Assembly: GCF_000469465.1 (NCBI RefSeq)
Contig: NZ_KI271850.1
Span: 3,479 to 27,478, forward strand
From: Gemella bergeri ATCC 700627
GTDB lineage: Bacteria; Bacillota; Bacilli; Staphylococcales; Gemellaceae
Direction of reading: 5' to 3'
DNA: 24,000 nt
In this document: one piece after another, positions 1,487 to 24,000 of the stretch
How positions within the stretch are numbered: position 1 is the first letter of the stretch
How the letters are laid out: each line of letters begins with the position of its first letter
Program-made: the position numbers and the translations under genes
Notes under the pieces: model-generated
Seen by the model: only the letters and a program-made list of their open reading frames with translations
What the model was told of the DNA's origin: nothing
The model's database searches: none

Positions 1487-3627
1487 ATTTTTCTTCCTTT
1501 ACTTTTTCTCTTTTTAATTAACGGTCTATGCGTTAATATTTTAAAATCAATTTCCTGATTATCTACGTCAACATTCACCACTTTGACTATCACTTCATCA
1601 CCTAAGCGATATATTTTTTTATTTCTTCTACCTATTAAAAACATATTCTTTTCATCATATGTATAATAATCATCTGTCATCGCTTTAATATGAACTAAAC
1701 CTTCTATTGTATTTTCTAATGTAACGAATATTCCAAAATTTGTCACGCCTGATACCATGCCTCTAAATGTTCTCTCTTGATATTTAAGTATATATTCACA
1801 TTTTTTCATTCGATCTACATCTCTTTCACAATCAACCGCTCGTTTCTCATATTTCGATGATATTTCCGCTAAATAAGCGAGTTTTTCCGCATTATGAATA
1901 AGTGTTTTTTCAGAAACATCACCTTTAAATAAGTATGTTCTAATCATTCTATGTACCAATAAATCAGGATAACGTCGTATCGGCGATGTAAAATGCGTAT
2001 AATACTTTGCAGCTAATGCAAAATGCCCAATATTTTCTGTAGAATAACGTGCTTGATTCATAGTTCTTAACAATATCGTTGACAGCATCGGTTCAATAAC
2101 TTCGCCTTTAAATTTCCGTAGCATATTTGCAAGCATGTAAGGCTCAATCTCCTCAATATTACCCTTTACTCTATACCCAAAACTTGAAGCTATATCGAAA
2201 AACTGTCTTAATTTTTGAATTTTAGGTTCTTCATGTATGCGATAAATAAACGGTACTTGCATCCAATAAAAATGTTCTCCAATTACTTCATTTGCACTAA
2301 GCATAAAGTCTTCTATTAACCGCTCCGCTACTCCACGTTCTCTAGGAACTACATCTAACACATCGCCATTTTTGTCTACTACAATTTTCGATTCTATCTT
2401 GTCAAAATCAATTGCTCCGCGTTTTTCTCTATTATCACGAATCTTTTTTGATAACTCCAACGCAATTTTTAGTATTGGTGCATATTCTTTATATTCTTCT
2501 TTTTCCTTTTCACTATTATCATACAAAGCATTTACCTTTTTATATGTTAGTCTTCCCTTTGATTTTATTATAGCCGGATATATATCATAACTTTCCGGAT
2601 ACCCTTTATCGTTAAAATAAATATCGCAACAAATCGTATATCTAAGTACATGAGGATTTAGCGAACAAATTCCATTTGATAATTTTCTGGGAAGCATCGG
2701 CACCACACGATCAGCTAAATAAACACTACATCCACGTTTAGATGCCTCAATATCTAATAAAGAATTTTCCTCTACATAGCGACTTACATCTGCTATAAAT
2801 ACTTTTAATTGATAACCTTTTTTAGTTTTAGTCACTGAGATTGCATCATCTAAATCTTTTGCATCATCACCATCAATCGTAACAACCATTTCTTTTGTAC
2901 AATCTCTATACTTATCATCAAATGTTATTTTTTCGCTTATTGTCTCAGTTTCTTTAAGAACATCTTCCGGAAATTCATTGGGAATACCATATTTATAAAT
3001 AACAGATAATATATCTACCCCCGGATCATCTTTATGTCCCAATGACTTAATTATGATACCTTTATGATCTTCAAAATTTGTCGTTGCATATTCTGTTATT
3101 TCTACTAATACCTTTGTTCCATCTACCAAATTAAAATTCTTACCGTTTAGTATTTTTATATACTTTACTATATTTTTATCATCACTTTTAACAAACGAAA
3201 ACATTCTGGCATTGGTAAGTATACCAACCGTATATTTAGTATTCCGCTCCAATACCTTTTTGACAATCCCTTCAAAGTTACGTCTATCCTTATAAGAACT
3301 ATCAATCTCAATAAGCACGCTATCTCCTGTCATAGCATCCTTAGTAAAACCTTTAGGTATGTAAACTTCTATGTCTAACCTTTCAATATAAACAAAAGCA
3401 AATCCTTTGGGATTTAAACGAATTATACCTTCAATTTTTAATTTTTCTTCCATATATAAGAATTTTTCGTTAGGTAATTGAATAATAATCGCCCTTTGTT
3501 CCAGCTTTTCTAAGCATTTTACCAATTCTACAAAAGTTTTTGCTGATGAAACGGCTAATTTTTCTTTCAAATCATCAATACTTAATACACCATATTTTTT
3601 AAACAATTTTAATATATTGTCTAACAT
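1483..3627 (-). CDS. rnr: Ribonuclease R (RNB family 3'-5' exoribonuclease with C-terminal S1 domain)
   Basis: RNB-domain motifs ([32 protein letters not shown]) and an S1 domain ([25 protein letters not shown]). I place the start at ATG 3627 ([11 protein letters not shown]), preceded by AAGGAGG at 3638-3632. The 14-codon extension in the ORF track runs into the secG terminator hairpin. Confidence 0.95.
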
Positions 3628-3640
3628 CTTTCCCTCCTTA

Positions 3641-3679
3641 ATAAAAATAACCCTAAAATGAAATTTCACTTTAGGGTTA
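3641..3679 (-). terminator. Intrinsic terminator after secG, immediately upstream of the rnr SD
   Basis: Perfect 10-bp stem taaccctaaa (3648-3657) / tttagggtta (3670-3679), followed on the minus strand by TTTTTAT (3647-3641). It starts 9 nt after the secG stop. Confidence 0.75.
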
Positions 3680-3687
3680 CATTATTG

Positions 3688-3918
3688 TTATAATTTTAAC
3701 CAAGTAAGGCACACTAGCGATATAAAGAATATTAATCCTAATACAATTGTTATTCTTTGTAAAACTAACTCAGCACCTCTTACTTTTTGTTTACCGAACA
3801 GTTCTTCGGCACCACCAGTTAAACCAGATAAACCACCTGACTTACTTTCTTGAAGTAGTACTACAATTATTATTAAAATACTGCTCAATATTGCTACTGT
3901 CATTAAAAAAGTGTGCAT
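3688..3918 (-). CDS. secG: Preprotein translocase subunit SecG
   Basis: 76 aa with two TM segments and the conserved LLQESKSGGLSGLTGGAEELFG core. SD AGGAGGAG lies upstream of ATG 3918. Confidence 0.93.
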   Translation of the reverse strand: MHTFLMTVAILSSILIIIVVLLQESKSGGLSGLTGGAEELFGKQKVRGAELVLQRITIVLGLIFFISLVCLTWLKL

Positions 3919-3960
3919 ACTCTCCTCCTAAAATAATCATCTATTAATACAATACAATTA

Positions 3961-3989
3961 ATCATAACATACTTTTTTATAAAAAGCAA
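3961..3989 (-). promoter_or_regulatory. Putative sigma-A promoter for secG
   Basis: Minus strand: TTGCTT (3989-3984), 17-nt spacer, then extended -10 TGtTATGAT (TATGAT = 3966-3961). Confidence 0.45.
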
Positions 3990-3992
3990 ATC

Positions 3993-5060
3993 TTATTGTA
4001 CTATCTTGGTAAATATTATTCGCCCCGATGATGTTTGTAAAACGCTTTGGACTTCTACTTCCACTGTCTTTCCTACATGACGTTTCCCATTTTCGACAAC
4101 AATCATCGTACCGTCTTCTGTATATGCTACCCCTTGATTATTTTCTTTTCCTTCTCTTAATACATTGACTTTCAAACGTTCACCCGTTGTTAATATAGGT
4201 TTTACAGCGTTGGATAAGTCATTCACATTTAAAACTTTTATAGATTGTAACGTGGCAAGTTTATTCAAATTATAATCTGTCGTAATAATTGCACATTTGT
4301 ATTTCAACGCATAATCTATAAGTAAATTGTCTACACCTTTATGTTCATTATAAGTATACTTATTATCTATTTCCAATTCTATTTCTTTCATGTTTTTTAA
4401 TTCTTCAACGCAATCCAATCCTAAACGTCCTTTAGCTCGTTTTAATGGTTCCTCAGAATCGGAAATTAATTGTAATTCTTTAAGTACAAAGTCGGGAACA
4501 ATAATTTTCCCTTCTAAAAATCCTGTTTTAGCAACATCATGTATTCTTGAGTCAATTAAAGCACTTGTATCAATTATTTTAGTTAAAACATCTAAACTTT
4601 TTTTAGATTTAGAACGAGTTTCTTTATTTTTGTTTCCAATTTTAAACGCCGTAAAAATATTAACAAATTCTCCTCCACGACGATAACCTATTACAAGTCC
4701 TAAATAACCGCAAACTATATATATCACAGCTGATATAATCCTTCCCATTATTCCGGAACCTGCTATAACGTCAACTCCTGCTGATAACAACATCGCAAGC
4801 AGAAGTCCCAGTATCAATCCGATAGTGGTAAAAACTATCTTTTGAATTGGTGTTTTTGATAATCGCTCTTCTATAGCACTCATCGCTGTTACAAATCTAT
4901 TAGAAAACAATAAAGACACTATTAAAAAAATTAAAGCTGTACCGATTGTAACAATCAATCTTAAGCTAGTTTCACTAAGCGACGAAAATACTTCATAGGT
5001 TATTAATGCTGATGTTATTAATGTACCTACCGTTATTCCAAGTAATAGCGAAACTATCAT
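3993..5060 (-). CDS. yacL: PIN/TRAM-domain membrane protein (YacL family)
   Basis: 355 aa: N-terminal TM helices, then a PIN domain (KIIDTSALIDSRIHDVAKTGFLEG...ITTDYNLNK) and a C-terminal TRAM domain (NQGVAYTEDGTMIVVENG...VLQTSSGRIIFTK). It sits after radA as in Bacilli. The true start may be ATG 5077 (see findings). Confidence 0.88.
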   Translation of the reverse strand: MIVSLLLGITVGTLITSALITYEVFSSLSETSLRLIVTIGTALIFLIVSLLFSNRFVTAMSAIEERLSKTPIQKIVFTTIGLILGLLLAMLLSAGVDVIAGSGIMGRIISAVIYIVCGYLGLVIGYRRGGEFVNIFTAFKIGNKNKETRSKSKKSLDVLTKIIDTSALIDSRIHDVAKTGFLEGKIIVPDFVLKELQLISDSEEPLKRAKGRLGLDCVEELKNMKEIELEIDNKYTYNEHKGVDNLLIDYALKYKCAIITTDYNLNKLATLQSIKVLNVNDLSNAVKPILTTGERLKVNVLREGKENNQGVAYTEDGTMIVVENGKRHVGKTVEVEVQSVLQTSSGRIIFTKIVQ

Positions 5061-5419
5061 TAATACTTTTTTAACATATGACCACTCCTTTTTTTAAAAA
5101 TTTATAGTTCTATTCTACTACATTCAGTTAAAAATTAATATAATTTTATTCAAAAATTTTAAAATTTTTTCTAATTTTATACTTTTTGCGAGTTCAACTC
5201 AAAATCGTGATTTTATTAGAAATCAATTTCGTAGGGTCGTCCCCACATAGTTCATTAAATTCTAGGAAAATTTTTAAGAGTATTGCAAAGAAATGAACCA
5301 CTGCATTTGACTACCAATAGGCAAATTCTATTAAAATTTTTAACTTTTGGATTAAACTTATAACAATTATATACTTTTCTCTTAATAATTCATATGTTAT
5401 GTAATATTATCTACATTTA

Positions 5420-5451
5420 TTACAAAATCGTAGAGCATTTTGCCCTACGAT
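5420..5451 (-). terminator. Probable intrinsic terminator after radA
   Basis: Stem atcgtagagc (5427-5436) / gccctacgat (5442-5451), 10 bp with one mismatch, loop atttt. Followed on the minus strand by TTTTGTAAT. It starts 5 nt past the radA stop. Confidence 0.55.
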
Positions 5452-5455
5452 ATTA

Positions 5456-6839
5456 TTAAAATATATTTTTAAATGCTATGTCTAAACATTGTCTAATGTC
5501 TTTAACGGGAATTATTTCTATTTCTTTTGGAAATTCTGAATTTTTGATATTGCTTGAAGGAATAATTACACGTTTAAAACCATGTTTTTTAGCTTCATTA
5601 ATGCGCTGTTCTATTCTACTAACACGACGCACTTCTCCGGTTAGACCGACTTCTCCTATAAAACAATCATTCATATCAACCGCAATATCTTTGAAACTGG
5701 AAGCAACCGCCATTATAACACCAAGATCTACTGCCGGATCATCTATTTTAACCCCACCGGATACCTTAACATAAACATCTTGCTGTTGCAATAAATATCC
5801 TGCTCGTTTTTCCAATACAGCCATTAATAATACCAACTTGTTATACTCCAATCCGGTTGATACACGTCGTGGATTATTAAATGCTGTCGGTGTTGTTAAC
5901 GCCTGAATTTCCACTAAAAGAGGACGACTCCCTTCCATTGTGCTAATAATCGTTGCCCCTGCTAAATCTTTACTTCGTTCTTCTAAAAACATTCGAGATG
6001 GATTTTCTAAATCATGTAACCCGCTTGATTTCATCTCAAAAATACCGATTTCATTCGTTGAACCGAATCGATTTTTAACAGCACGCAAAATACGATAACT
6101 ATGCTGACTCTCACCTTCAAAATACAAGACGGTATCAACCATGTGTTCTAACATTCTAGGTCCTGCTATCGTACCTTCTTTTGTAACATGACCAACTATA
6201 AAAATTGCAATATTTAAACTCTTTGCCATTTTCATTAACTGCTGCGTACATTCCCTTACCTGTGTGATACTACCGGGAGAATTTTCCAAACTCGGATTAT
6301 ATATAGTTTGAATTGAATCAATAACTAAAAACTGAGGTTTTATTTTTTTTTACTACCTGATAAATTAAATTAAGATCTGTTTGTGCATAAACATAAAGTT
6401 CATCCGTATTGTTTTTTAATCTATCCGCTCTAATTTTCACCTGTCTTACAGATTCTTCTCCTGTGACATAAAGCACATTATGTTCTTTTGCTAAATAGGC
6501 TGAAATTTGTAACAATAGTGTTGATTTCCCTATACCGGGATCTCCTCCCAGTAAGACTAATGATCCTCCAACTACTCCCCCTCCAAGCACTCTGTTTAAT
6601 TCTCCGCTATCGGTCAGCGTTCTTGGAACATCTTTAGTAGAAACTGTTTTTAGTTTCCCGGCTTCTACTCGTTGTACTTTCGTTTCTTCTGTACGATATT
6701 CAGCATGTTTACTCTTTACTTTTGATTCAACAACTTCTTCTAACGATCCCCATTTTGAACATTTCGGACATTTACCTAGATATTTTAAACTTTGATAACC
6801 ACAGGCATTACATTCATATTTTACATTTATCTTTGCCAT
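5456..6839 (-). pseudogene. radA: DNA repair protein RadA/Sms; reading frame broken by one extra base in an A9 run (6343-6351)
   Basis: The 5' ORF 6839-6318 carries the Zn-ribbon (CNACGYQ...CPKC) and Walker A (GGDPGIGKSTLLLQ). The 3' frame is open from 6349 and reads [35 protein letters not shown]...KNRFGSTNE...Lon-like C-domain. Together the two parts make one RadA of about 460 aa. Confidence 0.9.
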
Positions 6840-6841
6840 AA

Positions 6842-9316
6842 TTACCCCTTAGTTTTCTTTATCATAAACTTATCATTTTTATAATCAATGTTGATTACAC
6901 CCGTTATATCCGGATTTTTCAACAATTCTTCACTTAATAAATCTTCTATATTTTTTTGAATACTACGTTTAAGAGGTCTTGCACCATATTCTTTTATACT
7001 ACCATCTTCAACGATTTTTGACATCGCTTTTTTGGTTAGTTTAATTGTTATATTTTTATCGACTAAACGTTTTGATAAACCGGCTATTAATAGTTCAGAT
7101 ATTTGTTCCAACTCTTCTTTCTCAAGTGTTTTAAAAACAATAATATCATCAATACGATTTAAAAATTCGGGACGATATTGTTTTTTTAATGCTTCCATCA
7201 TTGTATTCTGAACATTTTTATAATCATTTTTAATTGATTCACTGCCACCAAAACCGACAAATTTTTGATCTTTTAATTCACTAACCCCCACATTTGATGT
7301 CATTATAATAATGGTATTTTTGAAATCAACTGTTCTACCGGCAGCATCTGTCAAACGTCCGTCATCAAGAACTTGCAATAGAATATTAAAAATTGATGGA
7401 TGCGCTTTTTCTATCTCATCAAACAACACTACTGAATACGGTTTTTGGCGCACTTTTTCTGATAGTTGACCTGCATCTTCATAGCCAACATATCCCGGAG
7501 GTGCTCCGATTAAACGACTGATTGAATGTGATTCCATATATTCGCTCATATCAATACGAATCATATTATCCTCTGAACTAAACAGTGCTTCCGATAGACT
7601 TTTTGCAAGTTCTGTTTTACCGACACCCGTAGGTCCAAGGAAAATAAAGCTACCAATCGGTCTATTTTCTGCTTTAAAACCGCTTCTTGCGCGGCGAACG
7701 GCTTTTGCTAAACTTGTAACAGCTTCATCCTGCCCGATAACTCGCTTATGTAAAATTTCTTCCAGTTTTAGTAGTTTTTCACTTTCCGTTTCTGTCAGTT
7801 TTGTTACCGGAACCCCTGTCCAACCTGCTAATACCTCAGCGATATGATCTGCATTAATCTGAATTTTTTCTTTTGTTAGATTATCCTGCCATGAAATTTT
7901 GAATTGTTCAATTTTTTGAATAATTTTATTTACTTCATCACGTTTTTTCGCAGCTATTTCAAATTCTTGATTAATTACAGCTCTATCCTTCTCTTTATTT
8001 AAACGACTTAATTCTTCTTCATATTGTTTTAATTTTTCCGGTGATTTGTAAAAACGTAATTTAACTTTTGAACAAGCCTCATCAATTAGATCTATCGCTT
8101 TATCCGGTAAACAGCGATCCGGAATATATGTTGAACTAAGTTTAACCGCTGTTTCTAATGCTTTATCTAATATTTCAACATTATGATGTTCTTCATATTT
8201 ATGTTTTAAACCTTTTAGTATCATAATTGCATTTTCTATATCCGGTTCTTCTACTTTAATCGGTTGAAAACGACGTTCCAACGCAGCATCTTTCTCAAAA
8301 TATTTACGATATTCTTCTGTTGTTGTCGCTCCAATACATTGGATTATGCCACGTGATAATGCCGGTTTTAAAATATTTGATGCATCTGCACTTCCTTCAG
8401 TACCGCCCGCTCCGATAATAGTATGAATCTCATCAATAAAGAGAATAATATTCCCCGCTTCTTCAATTTCTGAAATAATATTTTTTAAACGTTCTTCAAA
8501 TTCACCACGATACTTCGTACCGGCTAGCAAAGATCCCATATCCAAGACCATAACTCGCTTACCTAGTAAATTACTTGGTACATCTTGAGAAACAATTCGT
8601 TGCGCCAACCCTTCTACTATTGCAGTTTTACCGACACCCGGTTCTCCAATTAGCACCGGATTATTTTTTGTTCTTCTATTTAATATTTCAATCATACGTG
8701 TAATTTCTTTGTCACGTGCTAACACCGGATCAAGTTTGTTATCTAACGCATCTTTCGTTAAATCTTTAGCCAAGCTATTCAATATTTTTGTTTTTTCAGA
8801 ATTATCTTCTACTACATCCACTTTTTTAAAACCGTCAAATAATTTTGAGAATAATCCTTGGCTTTGTTTAACCAATTCAAATAATTCTGTTATTAGAACA
8901 TCGGTATTTATATTCAGTTTATCGGTTAATAATCTAACTGCCGTACTATTTTGTTCATTTAGCAATGATAACAATAAATGTTCACTGGTTACGACAAAAC
9001 TTGATGTATCATCAGCAAACTGTTGACTTTTTTCTATCGTTCTTACCGCACCGTTTGTATAATCAATTTTCATCAAAACATTGCGATAAAAATCCGTCCC
9101 TTCAAGCTCGGTTTCATAAAAATCTAATACATCTTTCCTAAAGTCATCATAATATACGCCATATTTATTTAATGTTTTACAAGAAAGTGTATTACTTAAA
9201 CTCAACATCGCCAATAATAAATGCTCTGTTCCTACAGCTTTAACACCAAAATCATTTGCTTCTTCTTTTGCTGTTGTTAAAACTATAAGGGCAGTTTCGT
9301 TAAATCTTATATACAT
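6842..9316 (-). CDS. clpC: ATP-dependent Clp protease ATP-binding subunit ClpC (class III stress gene)
   Basis: 824 aa with Clp_N repeats, two AAA+ modules ([15 protein letters not shown]; [14 protein letters not shown]) and a UVR-like linker ([10 protein letters not shown]). It lies directly downstream of ctsR. Confidence 0.96.
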
Positions 9317-9320
9317 TGCA

Positions 9321-9842
9321 TTACCCTCTCTTATTATATTTTATATTTGTTAAAAATTTAATCATTAAATTTCTTAATTGTGCTTTGGTGGCATATTGCA
9401 TTTTTTGGGCAACTTCATCACTAATTGCCAACTCAAGAAATTGATTATGAACATCAGTTACAGTTTCTACACTATTGATAAAATGGTTATAGTCAAATTT
9501 ATCGATATATTCTTTATCTAATAAAATTTTTGTTATACGAATTGCTTCATCTATTTCTATTATATCAGTAGGTAAATTATCAATTAAATAGTCCAAGTAG
9601 TCTGTACCTGTGTGTAATGTGATTTTCGTAATACGAATAAAACCTCCACCCCCACGTTTACTTTCAATAATAAAACCATGCTCAGGCGTAAAGCGGGTCT
9701 TTATCACATAATTTAACTGTGAAGGAACACAATCAAACTTTTGGGCTACATTACTTCTTTTTATTGTTATATAGTCTTCCGTAGATTTATTGAATAATTC
9801 TTTAATATATTGCTCAAGTATATCCGTCATATTATTATTCAT
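9321..9842 (-). CDS. ctsR: Transcriptional repressor CtsR
   Basis: 173 aa. The SQLNYVIKTRFTPEHGFIIESKRGGGGFIRITK block is the CtsR HTH/glycine-rich signature. SD GGAGG lies 7 nt upstream of ATG 9842. Confidence 0.95.
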   Translation of the reverse strand: MNNNMTDILEQYIKELFNKSTEDYITIKRSNVAQKFDCVPSQLNYVIKTRFTPEHGFIIESKRGGGGFIRITKITLHTGTDYLDYLIDNLPTDIIEIDEAIRITKILLDKEYIDKFDYNHFINSVETVTDVHNQFLELAISDEVAQKMQYATKAQLRNLMIKFLTNIKYNKRG

Positions 9843-9857
9843 AAGCCCACCTCCTTT

Positions 9858-9912
9858 ATTGACTAAAATTGACCTTTAAATAAATTATACTATAAAAGTA
9901 TCTTAGTTGCAA
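9858..9912 (-). promoter_or_regulatory. ctsR-clpC promoter with CtsR operator
   Basis: Minus strand: TTGCAA (9912-9907), 17 nt, TATAAT (9889-9884). This is followed by the direct heptad repeat GGTCAAT-TTT-AGTCAAT (9875-9858), against the CtsR consensus (A/G)GTCAAA-NAN-(A/G)GTCAAA. Confidence 0.8.
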
Positions 9913-9987
9913 TTACAACGGATAACAAATAATATAGTTGAAAATTAATATATATATAATTTTACACTGATATTTGTAATATTATCT

Positions 9988-10027
9988 CAAAAAATAAAAG
10001 CATAGAAGCTACTTACCTCTATGCTTT
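9988..10027 (-). terminator. Intrinsic terminator of the yjdF-like gene
   Basis: 10-bp perfect stem aaagcataga (9998-10007) / tctatgcttt (10018-10027). It overlaps the last codons and the stop, and is followed on the minus strand by TTATTTTTT. Confidence 0.75.
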
Positions 10028-10422
10028 CGTTTCCTTTTAAGCTGTTTAAGTTCAAATAAATATTTTTTACGCTCCTCTCTTTGTATTGAACAATTTTTCT
10101 TGCGTTCTTTTTTATATTCTTCAAATTGTAATTTCAGTGCTTGTTGTGACTTTGATGAAAATGTTTTATCGCAAGATTTTTTTACAGCACGCTGTAATCG
10201 TTTAGGATTTTTTATTTTTACTTTTTTCTTAGTCGTTACACTTGAACCAAAATTAAATTTAGTATAATAATTATTTATGTACTCATATACTTCTTTGTCA
10301 TTCGGTTCTTTTCCAAAAGTCACCTTAACTGCTGAAAGTTTTCCATCTACAACCCTTTCAAAAACACCAATCCAAAAAGAATTATCAAAAAATATATTAC
10401 ATGAAATTGATACACGGTTCAT
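10009..10422 (-). CDS. yjdF: DUF2992 / YjdF-family protein (function unknown, very basic C-terminus)
   Basis: The FFDNSFWIGVFERVVDGKLSAVKVTFGKEPNDKEV N-terminal block and the NPKRLQRAVKK...SKSQQALKL...KRKRKHRGK tail match my recollection of B. subtilis YjdF. I prefer ATG 10422 (SD GGAGG 7 nt upstream) over the TTG at 10425 used by the track. Confidence 0.8.
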   Translation of the reverse strand: MNRVSISCNIFFDNSFWIGVFERVVDGKLSAVKVTFGKEPNDKEVYEYINNYYTKFNFGSSVTTKKKVKIKNPKRLQRAVKKSCDKTFSSKSQQALKLQFEEYKKERKKNCSIQREERKKYLFELKQLKRKRKHRGK

Positions 10423-10429
10423 CAAATAT

Positions 10430-10545
10430 CCTCCTTTAATTTTTATAAAAAAGAATGGACAACCAAGGAGGAAGGTTACTTACAGTAGCTATTTGATTTT
10501 CAAATACTCTCTGCGGCCGGACTACCAACCAGCACTGTGTTTTTA
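10430..10545 (-). promoter_or_regulatory. Structured 5' leader, probable yjdF-class (azaaromatic) riboswitch
   Basis: Minus-strand leader after TATAAT (10569-10564): ACACAGTGCTGGTTGGTAGTCCGGCCGCAGAGAGTATTTGAAAATCAAATAGCTACTGTAAGTAACCTTCCTCCTTGGTTGTCC...AAAGGAGGATATTTGATG. It has a closing helix ACAGT-GCT / AGC[T]ACTGT and a perfect hairpin TATTTGA-AAA-TCAAATA. An anti-SD CCTTCCTCCTT is complementary to the SD. Its position upstream of a DUF2992 gene is the defining context of the yjdF motif. Confidence 0.55.
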
Positions 10546-10937
10546 TCTTTTTTCTATATATTTATTATACATCTAACTATTTTTCTTGTCATCAAAAAAG
10601 AACATTTCCTAAATGAAAATGCTCTTAGCTTGTTTACTCCCTTGTTTCTATCCTCATTAAAGACATTGGGTTAATCCTGTGACAATAACGTATAATATAC
10701 AAATTAACCATATAGCATTATCTCACTAAACTGAATAATACTATTTCTCACGTTTTTATTATACCCCTTTTACTATTTTTCTGCAAGCGGAAACATTTAA
10801 AAATATTTATTATAATTAAAACAATATATTAGATTATCTTTAATAAAAATATATATTAAAATAATAATCGTGATAAGAATACAATAAATTTCGTCTTTTT
10901 TCTGCTCTCAGATTTCCAAAAGTATAACTATTTAAAT

Positions 10938-19019: not shown

Positions 19020-20294
19020 CTAGTCACGAATAAACTTCTTCATCTCCGCTACATAATCTTTGTTTGAGTTATATTTTCTAAGATGGTTTAAAACACCAAT
19101 TGTAGGTTCACTCACATCTTCCAATTTTCGTCGTGTTTGCCATAAAATTTTCACTTCATCTTCTGTTAATAACAATTCTTCTTTTCTGGTTGAACTTTTA
19201 GCAAAATCTATTGCAGGATACACCCTTCTTAACGCCAGTTCAGGTGATAAAACTATTTCCATATTACCCGTTCCCTTAAATTCTTCAAAAATCATATCAT
19301 CCATTCGTGAACCGGTATTTATCAATGCTGTTGCAATAATCGTAAGACTTCCGCCACCTTCAACATTACGTGCCGCTCCAAAAAAAGCCTTTGGCTTATG
19401 AAGACTTGACGGATCAATCCCTCCGGTTAACACTTTACCGCTACTAGGTTCAACTATATTATAAGCACGTGCTAAACGTGTAATACTATCCATTAAAATA
19501 ATCACATCTTGTCCCAACTCTACTCGACGTTTTGCATGCTCTATTACAAGTTCTGCCACTTTTACATGATTTTCTGATGTTTCATCAAAAGTCGAACTAA
19601 CTACATCCGCACCTTTTACTGAACGTTCCATATCGGTAACTTCTTCCGGTCTTTCATCAATTAGTAAGATAATTAATTTTTTATCCGGATAATTTTTTCT
19701 AATTGCATTGGCAATATCTTTTAATAAAGTAGTTTTCCCCGCTTTGGGCGGCGCTACTATTAAGCCACGTTGCCCCAGACCGATAGGTGCTACCAAATCT
19801 ATAAATCTGGTTGATAATTTTTCTTTTGTAGTTTCCAAAACTAATTTACTGTCCGGATAAATAGGGGTTAATGCTTGAAAGTGCGGACGTGATTTTATTT
19901 CTTCAGCATTAACGCCGTTGATAACATCTACTTGAAGTAATCCGTAATATTTATCATTTTCTCTAGGAGGACGGACTTTCCCAGTTACTTCATCACCTTT
20001 TTTAAGCTCAAAACGTCTTATTTGAGATGCTGAAACATAAATATCAGCTTCTCCTTTATTATAATTAACCGTCCTTAAAAAACCAAAGCCGTTTTCCGGA
20101 TGAATATCATCTAAAATGCCGGTCATATAATAATTATTATCTTTTTCCATTTCCTTTTCTAAAATTGCAAGAATCAATTCCTTTTTATTAAGGGTAGAGT
20201 AACGCATAACTCCTAATTTCTTTGCAAGAAGCGTCAATTCCTTTGTCGTTTTACTTTTATACATATCGTCAAAAGTTTGATAATTATTATTCAT
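19020..20294 (-). CDS. rho: Transcription termination factor Rho
   Basis: 424 aa with an N-terminal Rho_N region (LTLLAKKLGVMRYSTLNKKELILAI), a cold-shock-like RNA-binding domain (GFGFLR) and Walker A APPKAGKTTLL. Confidence 0.97.
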   Translation of the reverse strand: MNNNYQTFDDMYKSKTTKELTLLAKKLGVMRYSTLNKKELILAILEKEMEKDNNYYMTGILDDIHPENGFGFLRTVNYNKGEADIYVSASQIRRFELKKGDEVTGKVRPPRENDKYYGLLQVDVINGVNAEEIKSRPHFQALTPIYPDSKLVLETTKEKLSTRFIDLVAPIGLGQRGLIVAPPKAGKTTLLKDIANAIRKNYPDKKLIILLIDERPEEVTDMERSVKGADVVSSTFDETSENHVKVAELVIEHAKRRVELGQDVIILMDSITRLARAYNIVEPSSGKVLTGGIDPSSLHKPKAFFGAARNVEGGGSLTIIATALINTGSRMDDMIFEEFKGTGNMEIVLSPELALRRVYPAIDFAKSSTRKEELLLTEDEVKILWQTRRKLEDVSEPTIGVLNHLRKYNSNKDYVAEMKKFIRD

Positions 20295-20396
20295 TTGTTA
20301 AAATCTCTTTTCTCTTTTATAATTATTGTTAAAATATATTTATTTACCCCTTAATGTGATAATGAGAATATTAGACCTCACTAATACTCTCACCCT

Positions 20397-20425
20397 ATTG
20401 TATATTCATTTTTCTTATTAAGCAA
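20397..20425 (-). promoter_or_regulatory. Putative rho promoter
   Basis: Minus strand: TTGCTT (20425-20420), 17 nt, TACAAT (20402-20397). This predicts a leader of about 100 nt containing the 20363-20392 hairpin. Confidence 0.4.
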
Positions 20426-20428
20426 GTA

Positions 20429-21316
20429 TTATCTTTTGCTTAAAACCACAACGGCGGATAGTATAAAGGCTGCTCCCAGTAAATCTAAACTACTGAATGT
20501 TGTCCCGAGTAATAAAAACGAAAAAATTATCGCCGCTATCGGCTCAAAACAACCTATTATGCTACCGGTAACCGCTCCAATTAATTTAATTCCCTCTAAA
20601 TACATAGTAAATGAAGCGATAGTTCCTATTAAAACAATTCCGGTTATACACAAAAAGTCGGTTAAACTAAATCCTGCCGGTATATAATAACTTCTTGTCG
20701 CAAAATAAACAACCGTTCCTGCTATAAAAAGCCCCCATGCAGTTATGATTGTTGCACCATATTTTGTGGTAAGTCTTATTGAAGAAATATTATAACTGGC
20801 AAGCCCAACCGCCGAGAAAATTCCCCAAAACAAACCGATCGCCGAAATAGATAATGTACTAAAGTCTAAATGAGTAGCCATTAAAGTAACACCAAATAAC
20901 GAAGTTATCATAGCTACAACTTCCCTAGTCATCGGCAAACGTTTATTCAAAACACAATAAAATGCCATTATCATAATCGGACCTGTAAATTGAAGAACTG
21001 TTGCCATTCCGGCATTGGTATGTTTTATGGCTAGAAAATACGTTCCTTGGCAAATAAGTAAGCCGAAAAACGAAAAATTCATTAACCTTAAAACATCTTT
21101 TTTATCTTTAAATACTCTAAGTGTCGCCTTTTTATCTTTTATTAATACTATAGCTAATAAAATTAATCCTGCATAAAATAAACGTGTGGTTATTACCCAA
21201 ATAGAATCTATTTTAGAAACATTAAGAAGATACTCTCCTAAAACTCCGGATAATCCCCAACACGTTGCTCCTGATATAGTAAGTAAAGTACCCTTTTGCA
21301 TTGTACTTAATTTCAT
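20429..21316 (-). CDS. EamA/DMT-superfamily permease
   Basis: 295 aa with about 10 TM helices and a duplicated EamA-type architecture. SD AAGGAGG lies upstream of ATG 21316. It starts only 10 nt after the preceding gene. Confidence 0.85.
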   Translation of the reverse strand: MKLSTMQKGTLLTISGATCWGLSGVLGEYLLNVSKIDSIWVITTRLFYAGLILLAIVLIKDKKATLRVFKDKKDVLRLMNFSFFGLLICQGTYFLAIKHTNAGMATVLQFTGPIMIMAFYCVLNKRLPMTREVVAMITSLFGVTLMATHLDFSTLSISAIGLFWGIFSAVGLASYNISSIRLTTKYGATIITAWGLFIAGTVVYFATRSYYIPAGFSLTDFLCITGIVLIGTIASFTMYLEGIKLIGAVTGSIIGCFEPIAAIIFSFLLLGTTFSSLDLLGAAFILSAVVVLSKR

Positions 21317-21326
21317 AACTTCCTCC

Positions 21327-22658
21327 TTAGTGATTAAATAATTTTAATCTTGAACTTACTATCGAATTTGTTCTTTCTATAACTTCATCATAACTATCAT
21401 CTTTTGATAATAAAATACTGGTAAATAAAGTTATCATATTTTCCAATGCAATCATGGTATTCCCGCAAGTATAAAACCTCGCATCTAAATTTGCGTTAAT
21501 ATAACCAAAAGGTGAATACCAAAAACCATATCCTGTAGGACAATTTTCTTTTAAAAACTCTTCAGCAGCTATTTCGGGATAACCTTTTAATAGAGGAATC
21601 GGGTATAAAACACTTAGTGCCTTTATCGCTTTTTGTTTACTTATTATTCTTGTCTTCAATACAGCATAAACATCTAACTTTTTACCCATTAACATCTTGT
21701 CATCCGAAACTTCAAAATCTTTCTCAAACTTAGCTTTAAACTCTTCTTTGTATCTGATGAATATATCTTTTTCATCAAACATAACAACACTTTTATCGGA
21801 AAAAAGATTTTCCTGTTTTAAATACAAGTACGCTTTTAGTTCTTCATCATCAACATCTAACGATACCAAAGGATTAGTAGTTACAAAGAGGCTTTTTTTC
21901 ATCTCAAAAGCAATAAAATATCTTTTTTTATTAAGCAAATATTTTGTTATAGCAGCAAGTGAAGTTCTATTTTCTAATAATATCTGATTCTTTCTTGGTA
22001 ATACTAATCTTTTCAGCTCACCTTGTTCTATTTTTAATAATGCTTTTCTTATATTTTCTTGCCAAACTTCCGGATAAATATCCCTTACTACAGATATTTT
22101 AGGTTCATTAAGTAATGGTTCTTCTTGAAAAACCAATTTTTCTAAAAATTCCGTTCTTTTTCGCCACAACTCCAGAAAGTCAACACCATCTTCCATATCA
22201 AAAAATAAGGTGAAATATACGAAATCTCCTTTAAAAACAGCCAAAATTTCCGGTACTACAAAAGAAGTATCACTAAAATCTACCCACTCCTGTGTACTTT
22301 TATTACTACCGTCAGAAACACCGCCATATAAACCGAAATATTCTTCATCATGTTCATCAATATCAATAAAAGTTACTTGTGTTTTTAATTCTTCAAAACC
22401 CGATAAAATATTTTTATTATCAAAACTGGATAAAAAATCGTTTGAATCTAATAACCAAGTTTTTTCATAACCTATTCCTATTTTAGAACTCCTGCTGTCA
22501 GGTGTTTTTATTATAAATCTCTCCCCACGTTTATGTGAAAATAAACTTATAAAATCCCATTCGCTAAAAGTTTTTTTCATTTTAAATTTTACTACTAATT
22601 TATTATCAAGAACTACATCATTGAAATCATAATTTATAATTCTCTGGTAATCATTCAT
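21327..22658 (-). CDS. Chorismate-binding-fold protein, isochorismate synthase (MenF/EntC)-like with degenerate motifs
   Basis: By eye it is colinear with MenF. ERFIIKTPDSRSSKIGIGYEKTW resembles the ERFYWQSPDG..G.G block. YFGLYGGVSDG...WVDFSDTSFVVPEI resembles FGG.SF....W..F....F.LP. WQENIRKALLKIEQGELKRLVLPR resembles W...V..A...I..GEL.KVVLAR. LYPIPLLKGYP resembles LHPTPALGG.P. TGYGFWYSPFGY resembles RGWYA.P.GW. I prefer the start at ATG 22658 (GGAGAA 6 nt upstream), which overlaps the upstream stop. Confidence 0.5.
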   Translation of the reverse strand: MNDYQRIINYDFNDVVLDNKLVVKFKMKKTFSEWDFISLFSHKRGERFIIKTPDSRSSKIGIGYEKTWLLDSNDFLSSFDNKNILSGFEELKTQVTFIDIDEHDEEYFGLYGGVSDGSNKSTQEWVDFSDTSFVVPEILAVFKGDFVYFTLFFDMEDGVDFLELWRKRTEFLEKLVFQEEPLLNEPKISVVRDIYPEVWQENIRKALLKIEQGELKRLVLPRKNQILLENRTSLAAITKYLLNKKRYFIAFEMKKSLFVTTNPLVSLDVDDEELKAYLYLKQENLFSDKSVVMFDEKDIFIRYKEEFKAKFEKDFEVSDDKMLMGKKLDVYAVLKTRIISKQKAIKALSVLYPIPLLKGYPEIAAEEFLKENCPTGYGFWYSPFGYINANLDARFYTCGNTMIALENMITLFTSILLSKDDSYDEVIERTNSIVSSRLKLFNH

Positions 22659-23493
22659 TATATTCTCCATCGCTCTGTATTTTCTCTATAATTTTCGCTT
22701 CTTTTTCTTCTTCACGACGCTGTTTAGCCAAAAGCTGTTTTTGACGCTGTTTTATTAATCTATTTACTTCTTCTTCCGATTTATAACTTGCTTCTTTATC
22801 CGTAAAAATAAAAACATTATTATGCTCGTTTAAAAGTGATAAAATAGTTTCTTGTTCGTCATGGTCATTTTCAAATAACTCCACCATATACTCTCTTTTA
22901 TCAGCTCCTAAAACAACTATAAATAAACTTCTTGCTGACAGTAAATTTTCATATCCGATACTTATTAGTTTATTTCCTCTAAGTTGAATCCCGGACTTTT
23001 GTAGCTGAGTTCTATCTTCCTTAGAAAACTCCAACAAATGAACACGTTTATTTTCTTCGTTCATATATTTATAATCCAGTATCGTTCCTTCCGCACCTAA
23101 AAATACTATTGCCACATCAGCAATATTTTCTGCCAATATCTCTTCATATTTAGCAATATCATCTTCACTATTTTTACTATCTAAACATTTTGGATAATAA
23201 ATATTCTTAGAATCTAAATCCAATTTTGTTATTAATTCTTTTCTAAGATAACGATATAATCCAAAATCTTCTTCTATATCTATATCCGCAAACTCTCTTT
23301 GCCCTACAAGAGTTATATGTTTATAGCGATACTTTCCGGCATTATAATCATCCACCATTCTATTCATAAATTGCGTGCCGATTATTTGTTCCGGCAACGA
23401 CACAACAGCACCATCCTCTAAACACTTTTCAAATTCATCATACATTCTATTAAGCACCGCCGTCTGACTGTTACAAACTATATATTTCACCAT
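22651..23493 (-). CDS. NagB/6-phosphogluconolactonase-fold-like protein with degenerate active-site motifs and a charged C-terminal tail
   Basis: Start at ATG 23493 (MVKYIVCNSQ), with GGAGG 5 nt upstream. By eye it is colinear with glucosamine-6-P deaminase. KHITLVGQREFADI aligns with V..FNLDEY.G. VAIVFLGAEGTILDYKY aligns with D...LGIG.DGHIAFNEP. SLFIVVLGADKREYM aligns with .I.L...G..KA. It ends in KQRQKQLLAKQRREEEKEAKIIEKIQSDGEYNE. Confidence 0.4.
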   Translation of the reverse strand: MVKYIVCNSQTAVLNRMYDEFEKCLEDGAVVSLPEQIIGTQFMNRMVDDYNAGKYRYKHITLVGQREFADIDIEEDFGLYRYLRKELITKLDLDSKNIYYPKCLDSKNSEDDIAKYEEILAENIADVAIVFLGAEGTILDYKYMNEENKRVHLLEFSKEDRTQLQKSGIQLRGNKLISIGYENLLSARSLFIVVLGADKREYMVELFENDHDEQETILSLLNEHNNVFIFTDKEASYKSEEEVNRLIKQRQKQLLAKQRREEEKEAKIIEKIQSDGEYNE

Positions 23494-23530
23494 TTCACCT
23501 CCAAATAAAGTCCGGTTATTTTTAATAACT

Positions 23531-23559
23531 ATTATATCATATTTAGACTGTAGTAACAA
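23531..23559 (-). promoter_or_regulatory. Putative promoter of the three-gene operon
   Basis: Minus strand: TTGTTA (23559-23554), 17 nt, extended -10 TGaTATAAT (TATAAT = 23536-23531). It lies inside the spurious N-terminal extension of the track ORF. Confidence 0.5.
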
Positions 23560-23583
23560 TGAGAAGAAATTTACAGATTTTAT

Positions 23584-23620
23584 CAAAAAATTGGTAGAAG
23601 TGACTTAACTGATTTCTACA
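23584..23620 (-). terminator. Weak intrinsic terminator at the end of addA
   Basis: 6-bp stem GTAGAA/TTCTAC (23619-23614 / 23599-23594) overlapping the stop, followed on the minus strand by CCAATTTTTTGA. Confidence 0.35.
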
Positions 23621-24000
23621 CCTCTATTAATTTTGATAAAGTATAAGAATAAATATAAGTCTTTACATCAGTACAATTATAATATTTTCTTACCGCTTCT
23701 TTATATATTTTCAACTGTTCACCATGACGTTTTTCTAAAATACTTTCACCATTTTTCTTTGTAACATTATCAGTTTTATAATCTATTATTAAATACTGCC
23801 CATCTATATTAATCAACAAATCAACAACACCTTGAAGTATTACGTCAATATTACTTTCACTCTCACTATAAAGCTCCTTGGCTTTTTTTAGTGTTGTAAA
23901 AGACAATTCAGTTTCACAAGTATCCGCATCTTTTACGAAACTAATCACTTCACTTTCTAAAAACATTTTTACTTTAGTTAAATCATCTTCGTTATTTATT
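23616..24000 (-). CDS. addA: ATP-dependent helicase/nuclease subunit A (AddA/RexA), C-terminal PD-(D/E)XK nuclease end; the gene runs off the right edge
   Basis: The frame is open to position 24000 (…INNEDDLTKVKMFLESE…). The QGVVDLLINIDGQYLIIDYKTD…QLKIYKEAV…IYSY block matches the AddA C-terminal nuclease motif (QGIVDCL…LLDYKSD…QLYTKAV…LYFF). Confidence 0.85.
   Translation of the reverse strand, partial: INNEDDLTKVKMFLESEVISFVKDADTCETELSFTTLKKAKELYSESESNIDVILQGVVDLLINIDGQYLIIDYKTDNVTKKNGESILEKRHGEQLKIYKEAVRKYYNCTDVKTYIYSYTLSKLIEV

What the first reader, a model, noticed from the sequence alone, without database searches (positions are those of the whole stretch)
20429..23559. Orphan operon: two translationally coupled degenerate enzyme-fold proteins plus a DMT permease
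Three genes sit between addA and rho, behind their own promoter-like element (TTGTTA-17-TGaTATAAT). The first is 23493-22651 (280 aa). The second is 22658-21327 (443 aa); its ATG overlaps the upstream stop as ATGAATGA, and its SD lies inside the upstream gene. The third is 21316-20429, an EamA permease with a 10-nt gap and SD AAGGAGG. The first two proteins follow the NagB/6-PGL fold and the isochorismate-synthase fold along their whole lengths, but positions that are catalytic in the active families look substituted. I cannot assign a co-translated pair of pseudo-enzyme-like proteins with an exporter-type permease to a known pathway. No men, ent/dhb or nag genes are adjacent in this window. 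It is the only part of the window that is not explained by housekeeping biology.
Basis: partly seen in the sequence, partly recalled or inferred. Interest (0 to 1): 0.7.

Follow-up and report, generated by a model that had tools for sequence, protein, structure and literature searches.

The report
Gemella-specific pseudoenzyme pair with permease
Three tightly packed genes found only in Gemella and its sister genus encode a sugar-deaminase look-alike and an isochorismate-synthase look-alike that have both lost their catalytic residues yet are strongly conserved, plus a membrane permease; their function is unknown and undescribed.

Summary
The window is Gemella bergeri. On the minus strand, between addA and rho, lie gene A (22651-23493, NagB fold), gene B (21327-22658, MenF/isochorismate-synthase fold) and gene C (20429-21316, two EamA repeats). 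They follow a promoter (TTGTTA-17-TGaTATAAT) that is conserved across species.

A and B score far below the curated family cut-offs and lack the catalytic residues:
- A lacks NagB Asp72, His143, Glu148 and the phosphate loop.
- B lacks the ICS Lys base, the Glu acid, the chorismate contacts, and most conserved acidic (presumed Mg) positions.

AlphaFold models are confident and match NagB and MenF best.

The B family occurs only in Gemellaceae. An exhaustive search of 1.84 billion representatives found nothing else except true MenFs at 20-25% identity. A-B is adjacent wherever upstream DNA is held (29 of 30 loci), and A-B-C in 28. Junctions are tight or overlapping. dN/dS is about 0.03-0.08, and A and B rates covary. 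So these are functional, repurposed proteins, not decaying genes and not the enzymes their annotations suggest.

The function is unknown. My best guess is an A-B complex without the ancestral activities that is linked to the permease. This is a new variant of known folds and moderately interesting.

The parts
23531..23559 (-). Promoter: -35 TTGTTA (23559-23554), 17-nt spacer, extended -10 TGaTATAAT (23539-23531)
   Evidence: Consensus scan, 10 of 12 matches with TG. Conserved as cgTTGTTAg...TRTGrTATAAT across Gemella and most Gemelliphila-type upstream regions, not L029, while the flanking sequence diverges.
23488..23502 (-). Ribosome-binding site GGAGGTG and the start of gene A (ATG 23493 or, more likely, GTG 23490)
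   Evidence: Sequence. GGAGGTGAAA and the codon before AAATAT are conserved in the alignment, and other species start at the position of the window's GTG.
22651..23493 (-). Gene A: 280-aa NagB-fold protein without the NagB catalytic residues, plus a 40-aa charged C-terminal helix (residues 240-279)
   Evidence: ORF. TIGR00502 52.1 bits vs cut-off 236.9, and PF01182 21.7 vs 27. PDB profile hits are NagB only. AF2 pLDDT 86.7. Top Foldseek hits are 1dea and 2bkv. dN/dS 0.04-0.08.
22651..22658 (-). A/B junction ATGAATGA: the B start codon overlaps the A stop codon, with SD GGAG inside A
   Evidence: Sequence. The junction is -11 to +6 nt in 27 of the 29 related loci with both genes. The exceptions are +23 in L028 and a frameshifted MAG, L024.
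21327..22658 (-). Gene B: 443-aa MenF-derived (MST/chorismate-binding fold) protein without the catalytic, substrate-binding and most presumed Mg-binding residues
   Evidence: ORF. PF00425 35.5 bits, and TIGR00543 54.6 vs cut-off 224.75. Alignment with 120 MenFs. AF2 pLDDT 87.7, pTM 0.89. Top Foldseek hit is E. coli MenF 2eua, E 2e-19. dN/dS 0.03-0.06.
21317..21326 (-). B/C spacer of 10 nt. The SD AAGGAGG spans the last two bases of the B stop codon and the start of the spacer (21329-21323)
   Evidence: Sequence. The gap is 1-14 nt with GGAG/GGTG in the related loci, and one has an 8-nt overlap.
20429..21316 (-). Gene C: 295-aa DMT-superfamily permease with two EamA repeats
   Evidence: PF00892 109.6 bits in 2 stretches. 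TIGR00950 140.6 bits (cut-off 230.2). Present after B in 29 of 30 related loci. dN/dS 0.04-0.09.
20361..20394 (-). 14-bp hairpin downstream of gene C without a U-tract; a possible end of the transcription unit
   Evidence: RNA fold: MFE -19 kcal/mol for the 141-nt intergenic stretch that contains it, z -1.8. Every Gemella species examined has a strong hairpin at this place with a different sequence. In Gemelliphila-type loci, C abuts or overlaps rho. The terminator consensus scan did not call it.

Best explanation
This is a transcription unit specific to Gemellaceae and inherited vertically. It has its own sigma-A-type promoter and three genes with tight or overlapping junctions. It encodes two repurposed enzyme relics and a membrane permease.

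Protein A descends from a NagB-type glucosamine-6-phosphate deaminase. Protein B descends from a Bacillales-type menaquinone isochorismate synthase (MenF). Both keep the ancestral fold, and both have lost the residues needed for the ancestral chemistry. Both are nevertheless maintained by strong purifying selection, are always encoded side by side, and change rate together.

The most likely mechanism is that A and B are made in matched amounts from one mRNA and act together as a cytoplasmic complex without the ancestral activities, binding a ligand or a partner. Their function would be tied to the downstream DMT permease, for example by sensing, sequestering or handing over the small molecule that the permease moves.

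Shown here: gene structure, folds, loss of catalytic residues, taxonomic restriction, synteny, selection and rate covariation. Inferred only: physical A-B association, the link to the permease, and any ligand.
For: ORFs and junctions.

Folds.

Loss of catalytic residues in B, against 120 MenFs: the general-base Lys, 100% conserved in MenF, is Arg217. The general-acid Glu (99%) is Leu264. Also AG280/281 -> LK, H329D, H352Y, R377Y, R400N, G414S, G416L, E426V, E429K and K433I. Glu308 is Lys in this genome. The roles of the Lys and Glu come from PMC11444293 and from established EntC K147/E197 and MenF K190/E240 enzymology.

Loss of catalytic residues in A: NxDEY -> GQ[RK]E[FI], DGH143IxFNE148 -> [DE]G.IL[DN]Y[KR..], and LPTGGTP -> LPE.I..TQF. 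The catalytic role of His143 and its interaction with Glu148 come from PMC3009595 and PMC4008608.

Restriction: the exhaustive search of 1.84e9 representatives finds only the query's own cluster, one 49%-identical cluster, and then true MenFs at 20-25% identity. The 30 genome loci are all Gemella or Gemelliphila.

Synteny: A-B in 29 of 29 loci with upstream DNA, and C in 29 of 30. Junctions are tight. The promoter is conserved.

Selection: dN/dS is 0.04-0.08 for A and 0.03-0.06 for B at dS 0.2-1.1.

Rate covariation: the A-B partial correlation is 0.86 after removing the rho (species) signal, against 0.52 for A-C and 0.64 for B-C.
Against: There is no direct evidence that A and B touch each other, bind any ligand, or relate to the permease. 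One genome (L027) has A-B followed directly by rho with no permease, so the permease is dispensable at least there.

The rate-covariation points are not independent and come from only 21 genomes.

A keeps many invariant polar residues around its former active site: E35, T40, Q41, R45, K54, Y55, Y57, H59, Q65, E67. That fits a new catalytic site as well as it fits a binding site.

A multimer prediction could not be run.
Confidence: 0.5

Rival explanations
1. A and B are still enzymes, but with new active sites. Together with the permease they would form a short lineage-specific pathway that makes or consumes a small molecule, which C then exports or imports.
For: In A, the most conserved stretch is residues 1-75. 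It covers the loops that formed the NagB active site and carries invariant polar or ionisable residues: E35, T40, Q41, R45, K54, Y55, Y57, H59, Q65, E67, E74, E75.

In B, several ex-active-site positions are fixed to new residues in all 30 sequences: R217, L264, S266, D329, Y352, Y377.

Strong purifying selection and linkage to a transporter are typical of metabolic operons.
Against: B's former pocket is now lined mostly with hydrophobic or aromatic residues (L264, L280, Y352, Y377, W380, L416, V426, I433), and most of the conserved acidic positions, taken here to include the Mg ligands, are gone.

The substituted ex-active-site positions of B are no more conserved than the rest of the protein: 6 of 28 are invariant against 80 of 394, and entropy is 0.62 against 0.76, p = 0.17. 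B's best-conserved stretch, residues 100-140, lies outside the catalytic pocket motifs.

No cofactor-binding motif or further enzyme gene is in the unit.
Confidence: 0.3
2. A and B work together, but independently of the permease and of any small molecule. They could be a structural or regulatory protein pair, and gene C would merely be a neighbour.
For: L027 has A-B without C. The A-B rate covariation (0.86) is clearly higher than A-C (0.52) or B-C (0.64). A has a conserved 40-aa charged C-terminal helix, typical of protein-protein contacts. In L028 and L029, C abuts or overlaps rho, so in those species the unit is not closed at C.
Against: C follows B at 1-14 nt or with an overlap in 28 of the 29 related loci that have it (the exception is the frameshifted MAG L024), across two genera at about 50% protein identity. 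Such order rarely persists without a functional link.
Confidence: 0.13
3. The database names are right: A is an active 6-phosphogluconolactonase or glucosamine-6-phosphate deaminase, and B is an active chorismate-utilising enzyme.
For: NCBI and JGI name A '6-phosphogluconolactonase' or 'glucosamine-6-phosphate isomerase'. UniRef names B 'chorismate binding enzyme'. PF00425 is passed at 35.5 bits against 27.
Against: Scores against curated cut-offs are nagB 52.1 vs 236.9, pgl 28.7 vs 124.45 and isochor_syn 54.6 vs 224.75. PF01182 is below its gathering score, 21.7 vs 27. Every catalytic residue checked is replaced, and the position of NagB His143 is variable within the family (T/G/E/S/Y).
Confidence: 0.04
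4. A and B are decaying remnants of a lost menaquinone pathway and a lost amino-sugar pathway. They would be still-open pseudogenes without function.
For: Loss of catalytic residues. Divergence is fast relative to rho: 46-72% identity against 80-87%.
Against: The reading frames are intact and full-length in nearly all of the 30 species-level genomes from two genera. The only breaks are in two error-prone assemblies, L024 and L031. dN/dS is 0.03-0.08, similar to the permease. The promoter, SD and junction geometry are conserved.
Confidence: 0.03

Closest known systems
Glucosamine-6-phosphate deaminase NagB (TIGR00502 / PF01182; E. coli 1dea, B. subtilis 2bkv)
   Same: Same fold over residues 1-238. 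Foldseek E 2.4e-17, TM (target) 0.72-0.82. The profile hits in PDB are NagB only. The G..K motif (NagB Lys208) is kept as G196..K199.
   Different: About 16-18% identity. The score is a quarter of the family cut-off. The catalytic Asp72 is Arg/Lys, His143 is a variable residue, Glu148 is Lys/Arg/Thr/Asn, and the phosphate loop TGGTP is E.I..TQF. There is an extra 40-aa charged C-terminal helix. It is encoded next to a MenF-like gene, not nagA.
Menaquinone-specific isochorismate synthase MenF and the MST family (TIGR00543 / PF00425; E. coli MenF 2eua, AtICS1 8w6v). The nearest active sequences are MenF of Mammaliicoccus lentus, Alkalibacillus and Anoxybacillus
   Same: Same two-domain fold along the whole length: TM (query) 0.68-0.77, with full-length alignments to Bacillales MenFs at E down to 4e-19. 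Structural residues are kept: G112, W125, P136, W199, R222, F258, P263, K304, P353, G359, P361, G378, G385.
   Different: 17-20% identity in the 132-sequence alignment (20-25% by phmmer). The Lys base is Arg and the Glu acid is Leu. The AG, HPTPA, RGxY, IRS and GxGIV motifs and the C-terminal E..E...K motif are all replaced. A 12-aa deletion follows the K..EH motif. There are no menD/H/B neighbours.
Heteromeric MST enzymes encoded by adjacent, often overlapping genes (TrpE-TrpG, PabB-PabA). This comparison rests on my own knowledge
   Same: An MST-fold subunit is encoded next to, and probably made stoichiometrically with, a smaller alpha/beta-fold partner.
   Different: The partner here has a NagB fold, not a class-I glutamine amidotransferase fold. 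Neither subunit retains catalytic residues, and no complex has been shown.
DMT superfamily EamA-type permeases (PF00892; TIGR00950 carboxylate/amino acid/amine transporter; weak similarity to YddG and YedA)
   Same: Two EamA repeats across 295 aa.
   Different: Below the TIGR00950 equivalog cut-off (140.6 vs 230.2). The YddG model matches at only 29 bits. The substrate is unknown.

Membership tests
NagB, glucosamine-6-phosphate deaminase (TIGR00502, PF01182) | Whole-protein HMM score at or above the curated cut-off | tested here: not met
   TIGR00502 52.1 bits vs 236.9. PF01182 21.7 vs 27.
NagB, glucosamine-6-phosphate deaminase (TIGR00502, PF01182) | NagB/RpiA-like alpha/beta fold | tested here: met
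   AF2 model pLDDT 86.7. Top 21 Foldseek PDB hits are all NagB, E 2e-17 to 2e-15.
NagB, glucosamine-6-phosphate deaminase (TIGR00502, PF01182) | Catalytic base Asp72 in the N-x-D-E-Y motif (E. coli numbering; own knowledge, Oliva et al. 1995) | tested here: not met
   The motif aligns to G64-Q65-R66-E67-F68. Asp is replaced by Arg in Gemella and Lys in Gemelliphila-type sequences.
NagB, glucosamine-6-phosphate deaminase (TIGR00502, PF01182) | Ring-opening His143 with Glu148 (D-G-H-I-x-F-N-E-P) | tested here: not met
   The motif aligns to E135-G136-T137-I-L-D-Y141-K142. The His position is T/G/E/S/Y across the family, and the Glu position is K/R/T/N. The residue roles come from PMC3009595 and PMC4008608.
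NagB, glucosamine-6-phosphate deaminase (TIGR00502, PF01182) | Phosphate-binding loop L-P-T-G-G-T-P | tested here: not met
   Aligned to L-P-E-Q-I-I-G-T-Q-F. The family consensus is [LF][PS]E.I..TQF.
6-phosphogluconolactonase (TIGR01198), the name NCBI gives to A | HMM score at or above the cut-off, and the catalytic His of the D-G-H motif | tested here: not met
   28.7 bits vs 124.45. There is no His at the D-G-H position. 6PGL structures rank below all the NagBs.
Isochorismate synthase / MST chorismate-utilising enzymes (TIGR00543, PF00425) | Chorismate-binding domain detected above the Pfam gathering score | tested here: met
   PF00425 35.5 bits vs 27, covering only the C-terminal part, residues 325-404.
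Isochorismate synthase / MST chorismate-utilising enzymes (TIGR00543, PF00425) | Score at or above the isochorismate synthase subfamily cut-off | tested here: not met
   TIGR00543 54.6 bits vs 224.75. The nearest true MenFs score 312-394.
Isochorismate synthase / MST chorismate-utilising enzymes (TIGR00543, PF00425) | MST two-domain fold | tested here: met
   AF2 pLDDT 87.7, pTM 0.89. Top hits are MenF 2eua E 2.1e-19 and AtICS1 with TMq 0.77. The alignment given to AF2 contained 120 MenFs, which favours this fold.
Isochorismate synthase / MST chorismate-utilising enzymes (TIGR00543, PF00425) | General-base Lys (KVVLxR; EntC K147, MenF K190, AtICS1 K316) | tested here: not met
   Lys in 120 of 120 MenFs, and Arg217 in 30 of 30 B-family sequences. 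The role of this residue is from PMC11444293.
Isochorismate synthase / MST chorismate-utilising enzymes (TIGR00543, PF00425) | General-acid Glu (xPE; EntC E197, MenF E240, AtICS1 E366) | tested here: not met
   Glu in 99% of MenFs, and Leu264 in 30 of 30 B-family sequences.
Isochorismate synthase / MST chorismate-utilising enzymes (TIGR00543, PF00425) | Mg2+-ligand glutamates and chorismate-carboxylate contacts (K..EH, AG, RGxY, E..E...K) | tested here: not met
   E308 is K in the window (E in 24 of 30 relatives). Also E426V, E429K, K433I, A280L, G281K and R377Y. Which of the conserved Glu residues bind Mg is assigned from my own knowledge of the MST structures.
DMT superfamily, EamA-type permease (PF00892) | Two EamA repeats, about 10 TM segments | tested here: met
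   PF00892 109.6 bits in 2 stretches. TM helices were not predicted separately.
DMT superfamily, EamA-type permease (PF00892) | Assignment to a subfamily of known substrate (TIGR00950, YddG, YedA) | tested here: not met
   140.6 vs 230.2, 29.4 vs 300 and 29 vs 270 bits.
Single transcription unit (operon) | Shared promoter, no internal terminator, coupled junctions, conserved order | tested here: inconclusive
   The sequence evidence agrees throughout: conserved promoter, no terminator, tight junctions and conserved synteny. No transcript data are available.

The most novel reading that the evidence does not exclude
After the Gemellaceae lineage gave up the ancestral roles of MenF and of a NagB copy, the two relics were recruited into a new obligate heteromeric module. 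NagB-like A would dock through its added charged C-terminal helix onto MenF-like B. B's best-conserved part is the acidic N-terminal-domain stretch at residues 100-140, which is the region that holds the tryptophan regulatory or structural pocket in TrpE and PabB. The module would act as a cytoplasmic ligand sensor or gate for a DMT permease. This would be the first described pseudoenzyme of the MST (chorismate-utilising) fold, and a new kind of transporter accessory.
Probability: 0.2. Interest if true: 0.65.

Novelty: new variant of a known kind. Interest (0 to 1): 0.45.

Why it matters
Gemella species are common members of the human oral and airway flora and occasionally cause endocarditis. 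This unit is a family-specific, strongly conserved trait with no assigned function.

It corrects misleading database names. '6-phosphogluconolactonase' and 'chorismate binding enzyme' feed into pathway predictions for microbiome data.

It also offers a clean natural case of two unrelated enzymes losing catalysis while being kept, co-encoded and co-evolving. That is useful for the study of pseudoenzymes. I found no paper describing a catalytically dead member of the MST fold.

It does not open a long-standing question, and no mechanism is yet shown.

Tried and rejected
- Rfam scan of 20000-24000 at E <= 1: nothing relevant, so there is no riboswitch or leader RNA.
- PADLOC defence models for A, B and C: no hits.
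- Terminator consensus scan: none in 20200-23700. A hairpin after C was found only by folding.
- Single-sequence PDB search for B: only marginal hits, E 0.26-0.94. The family profile improved this to MenF at 7.5e-5.
I spent the last homolog search on a Gemelliphila A sequence to obtain admissible, more divergent rows.
- The AFDB50 fold library was not available, so structural neighbours of A outside PDB were not surveyed.
- Literature searches for Gemella plus menaquinone or respiratory quinone gave only microbiome or unrelated taxonomy papers. Whether Gemella lacks the men pathway therefore stays unverified here.
- 'Pseudoenzyme' plus 'isochorismate synthase' gave one irrelevant paper.
- I tested whether B's substituted ex-active-site positions are more constrained than the rest of the protein. 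They are not, significantly (p = 0.17).
- A look-up meant to identify further named species returned a long-read assembly in which B and addA are fragmented, probably by sequencing errors.
- Gemella morbillorum was not identified by name among the 30 loci. Presence or absence there is unresolved.

Full report
**Observation**

The three minus-strand ORFs exist as described:
- A: 22651-23493, 280 aa.
- B: 21327-22658, 443 aa.
- C: 20429-21316, 295 aa.

The B start overlaps the A stop as ATGAATGA, with GGAG 7 nt upstream inside A. C follows B after 10 nt, with AAGGAGG.

TTGTTA-17-TATAAT with an upstream TG lies at 23559-23531. Such a match alone means little here, because 19 promoter-like sites were found against 18 expected from shuffles.

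The rest of the window is housekeeping: smpB, rnr, a PIN-TRAM protein, radA, clpC, ctsR, clpP, rpsI, rplM, gltX, cls, prsA, a GFO oxidoreductase, a DedA/VTT protein, rho, and the end of addA. There are no men, ent/dhb or nag genes. Exact protein matches identify the organism as Gemella bergeri.

**What the proteins are**

Protein A:
- It matches NagB models over nearly its whole length, but far below the cut-offs: TIGR00502 52.1 bits vs 236.9, pgl TIGR01198 28.7 vs 124.45, and PF01182 21.7 vs 27.
- A profile of eight family members hits only NagB structures in the PDB, the best being 3hn6 at E 2.5e-11 and 2bkv at 2.6e-10.
- An AlphaFold model (pLDDT 86.7) is most similar to E. coli and B. subtilis NagB, with E about 1e-17 and target TM 0.72-0.82. 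The 6-phosphogluconolactonases rank lower.
- A has an extra 40-residue C-terminal helix.

Protein B:
- It passes Pfam Chorismate_bind (35.5 vs 27) but scores only 54.6 vs 224.75 on the isochorismate synthase model.
- Its model (pLDDT 87.7, pTM 0.89) matches E. coli MenF best (2eua, E 2e-19), and Arabidopsis ICS1 with query TM 0.77. The alignment supplied to AlphaFold contained 120 MenFs, which favours that fold. Full-length HMM alignments support the homology independently.

Protein C has two EamA repeats (109.6 bits). It sits below the cut-off of every DMT subfamily with a known substrate.

**Loss of catalytic residues**

I aligned B and eleven relatives with 120 MenFs. B's family keeps the structural Gly, Trp and Pro positions, and also R222 and K304. 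It replaces these:
- The general-base Lys, present in all 120 MenFs, is Arg217 in 30 of 30 family members.
- The general-acid Glu is Leu264 in 30 of 30.
- The AG pair is L/K.
- H329 is D, H352 is Y, T354 is I/M, A356 is L/I, and R377 is Y.
- Y380 is W, R400 is N, G414 is S, and G416 is L.
- E426 is V, E429 is K, and K433 is I.
- Glu308 is Lys in this genome.

The Lys and Glu roles are stated for AtICS1 (K316, E366) in PMC11444293. They correspond to EntC K147/E197 and MenF K190/E240, which is established enzymology cited from my own knowledge. The 50-residue K-to-E spacing matches the motif positions.

In A:
- The NagB motif NxDEY (Asp72 base) reads GQ[RK]E[FI].
- DGH143IxFNE148 reads [DE]G.IL[DN]Y[KRTN], and the His position varies within the family.
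- The phosphate loop TGGTP reads E.I..TQF.
- Only the G..K (Lys208) motif survives.

The catalytic role of His143 and its interaction with Glu148 are stated in PMC3009595 and PMC4008608.

**Distribution and context**

An exhaustive HMMER scan of 1.84 billion cluster representatives found, apart from fragments, only three classes of hit:
- The query's own cluster.
- One 49%-identical cluster.
- Bona fide MenFs at 20-25% identity. These score 312-394 bits on TIGR00543.

The nearest named ones are MenF of Mammaliicoccus lentus, Alkalibacillus, Anoxybacillus and Halalkalibacillus. B therefore derives from a Bacillales-type MenF.

A scan of one genome per GTDB species returned 30 loci. All are Gemella or Gemelliphila, and one is mislabelled Streptococcus sp. 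UMB1385.
- In 29 of 29 loci with upstream DNA, A directly precedes B.
- C follows in 29 of 30; L027 goes from B straight to rho.
- rho follows in nearly all.
- addA lies upstream only in Gemella.
- In Gemelliphila asaccharolytica the upstream genes are valS and a Cu-oxidase_4 (PgeF-like) gene.

A/B junctions range from -11 to +6 nt, with one of +23 and one frameshifted MAG. B/C gaps are 1-14 nt, or an 8-nt overlap.

The -35, the extended -10 and the GGAGGTGAAA ribosome site are conserved in otherwise divergent upstream DNA. The homologous start codon corresponds to the window's GTG 23490.

Every Gemella species examined has a strong hairpin without a U-tract just after C. In L028 and L029, C abuts or overlaps rho.

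**Selection**

Nei-Gojobori dN/dS was computed for pairs with dS 0.2-1.1:

| Gene | dN/dS |
|---|---|
| A | 0.04-0.08 |
| B | 0.03-0.06 |
| C | 0.04-0.09 |
| rho | 0.01-0.04 |

The genes are therefore functional.

Pairwise distances of A and B correlate at 0.86 after regressing out rho. The figures are 0.52 for A-C and 0.64 for B-C. This is suggestive only, because the points are not independent and come from 21 genomes.

Within B, the positions that replaced MenF's conserved residues are not significantly more constrained than the rest (p = 0.17). B's best-conserved stretch is residues 100-140 in the N-terminal domain. A's best-conserved stretches are residues 1-75, the former active-site loops, and 226-247, the junction to the added helix.

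**Interpretation**

Decay is excluded. So are the annotated enzyme activities.

I consider it most likely (about 0.5) that A and B act together as a module without the ancestral activities, linked to the permease. The main rival (about 0.3) is that they are enzymes with new chemistry, and A's conserved polar cluster keeps that open. It also remains possible (about 0.13) that the permease is only a neighbour. Complex formation, ligand and transport substrate are all untested.

**Comparison with known families, and novelty**

Both proteins belong to known folds. Both fail the defining catalytic features of NagB, 6PGL and isochorismate synthase, so they should not be filed as members of those enzyme families.

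I found no description of such proteins, or of a dead MST-fold protein. PADLOC and Rfam give nothing.

I rate this a new variant of known kinds. It is of moderate interest (0.45): a well-supported, lineage-specific pair of co-evolving pseudoenzymes, without a demonstrated mechanism and without bearing on a major open question.

Noticed in passing
window 5456-6839 (- strand): radA/sms is split into two ORFs in different frames. ORF 6318-6839 (173 aa) holds the Zn ribbon and the start of the ATPase. ORF 5456-6289 (277 aa) holds the rest plus Lon_C. The second frame already reads [14 protein letters not shown] upstream of its start codon. This is a frameshift near 6320-6370, either a real pseudogene or a sequencing error.
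   Followed up: partly
window 23488-23493: The annotated ATG start of gene A sits only 4 nt after the GGAGG core. The adjacent GTG (23490) aligns with the start codons of all other species and has 7-nt spacing, so A is probably 279 aa.
   Followed up: yes
window 20361-20394 and the C-rho spacers of L003, L005, L007, L011, L017, L030: Each Gemella species has a strong hairpin immediately after the permease stop. The sequences differ, and none has a U-tract. In L003, L017 and L030 the hairpin is followed directly by TATAAT, which may be the rho promoter. The stretch could be a terminator/promoter module or part of a rho leader.
   Followed up: partly
L027 (Gemella MAG SRR15732359_bin.2), 7204-10745: This genome has A and B followed directly by rho. 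The permease gene is missing.
   Followed up: no
L028 9356-11549; L029 9344-11519: In Gemelliphila-type genomes the permease gene lies 31 nt from rho (L028) or overlaps it by 11 nt (L029). This suggests that rho is co-transcribed with the cluster there.
   Followed up: no
L029 3667-7184: In Gemelliphila asaccharolytica a Cu-oxidase_4 (PgeF/YfiH-like) gene ends 20 nt before gene A, downstream of valS. The conserved TGaTATAAT promoter is not recognisable in this species.
   Followed up: no
L006 (PNGU01000007.1): The record is titled Streptococcus sp. UMB1385, but the locus is 97% identical in A and B proteins to G. haemolysans L005. The assembly is probably mislabelled or mixed.
   Followed up: no
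L031 (GCA_015473165.1, 2.16-Mb contig), 1976-8151: In this assembly B is called as 322 + 120 aa and addA as 638 + 415 aa. These are probably frameshift errors of the assembly rather than real disruptions.
   Followed up: no
PDB chain 8w6v_A, residues about 271-278 (alignment): The deposited AtICS1 chain reads LNRVVLAR at the motif where MenFs have the general-base Lys (KVVLAR), and the commentary names K316 as the base. Either the crystallised protein is a K-to-R variant, or the numbering or alignment differs. This was not resolved. B also carries Arg at this position.
   Followed up: no
window 10009-10425 (- strand): A DUF2992 protein (138 aa) sits between ctsR-clpC and clpP. It is the only other gene of unknown function in the window.
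   Followed up: no
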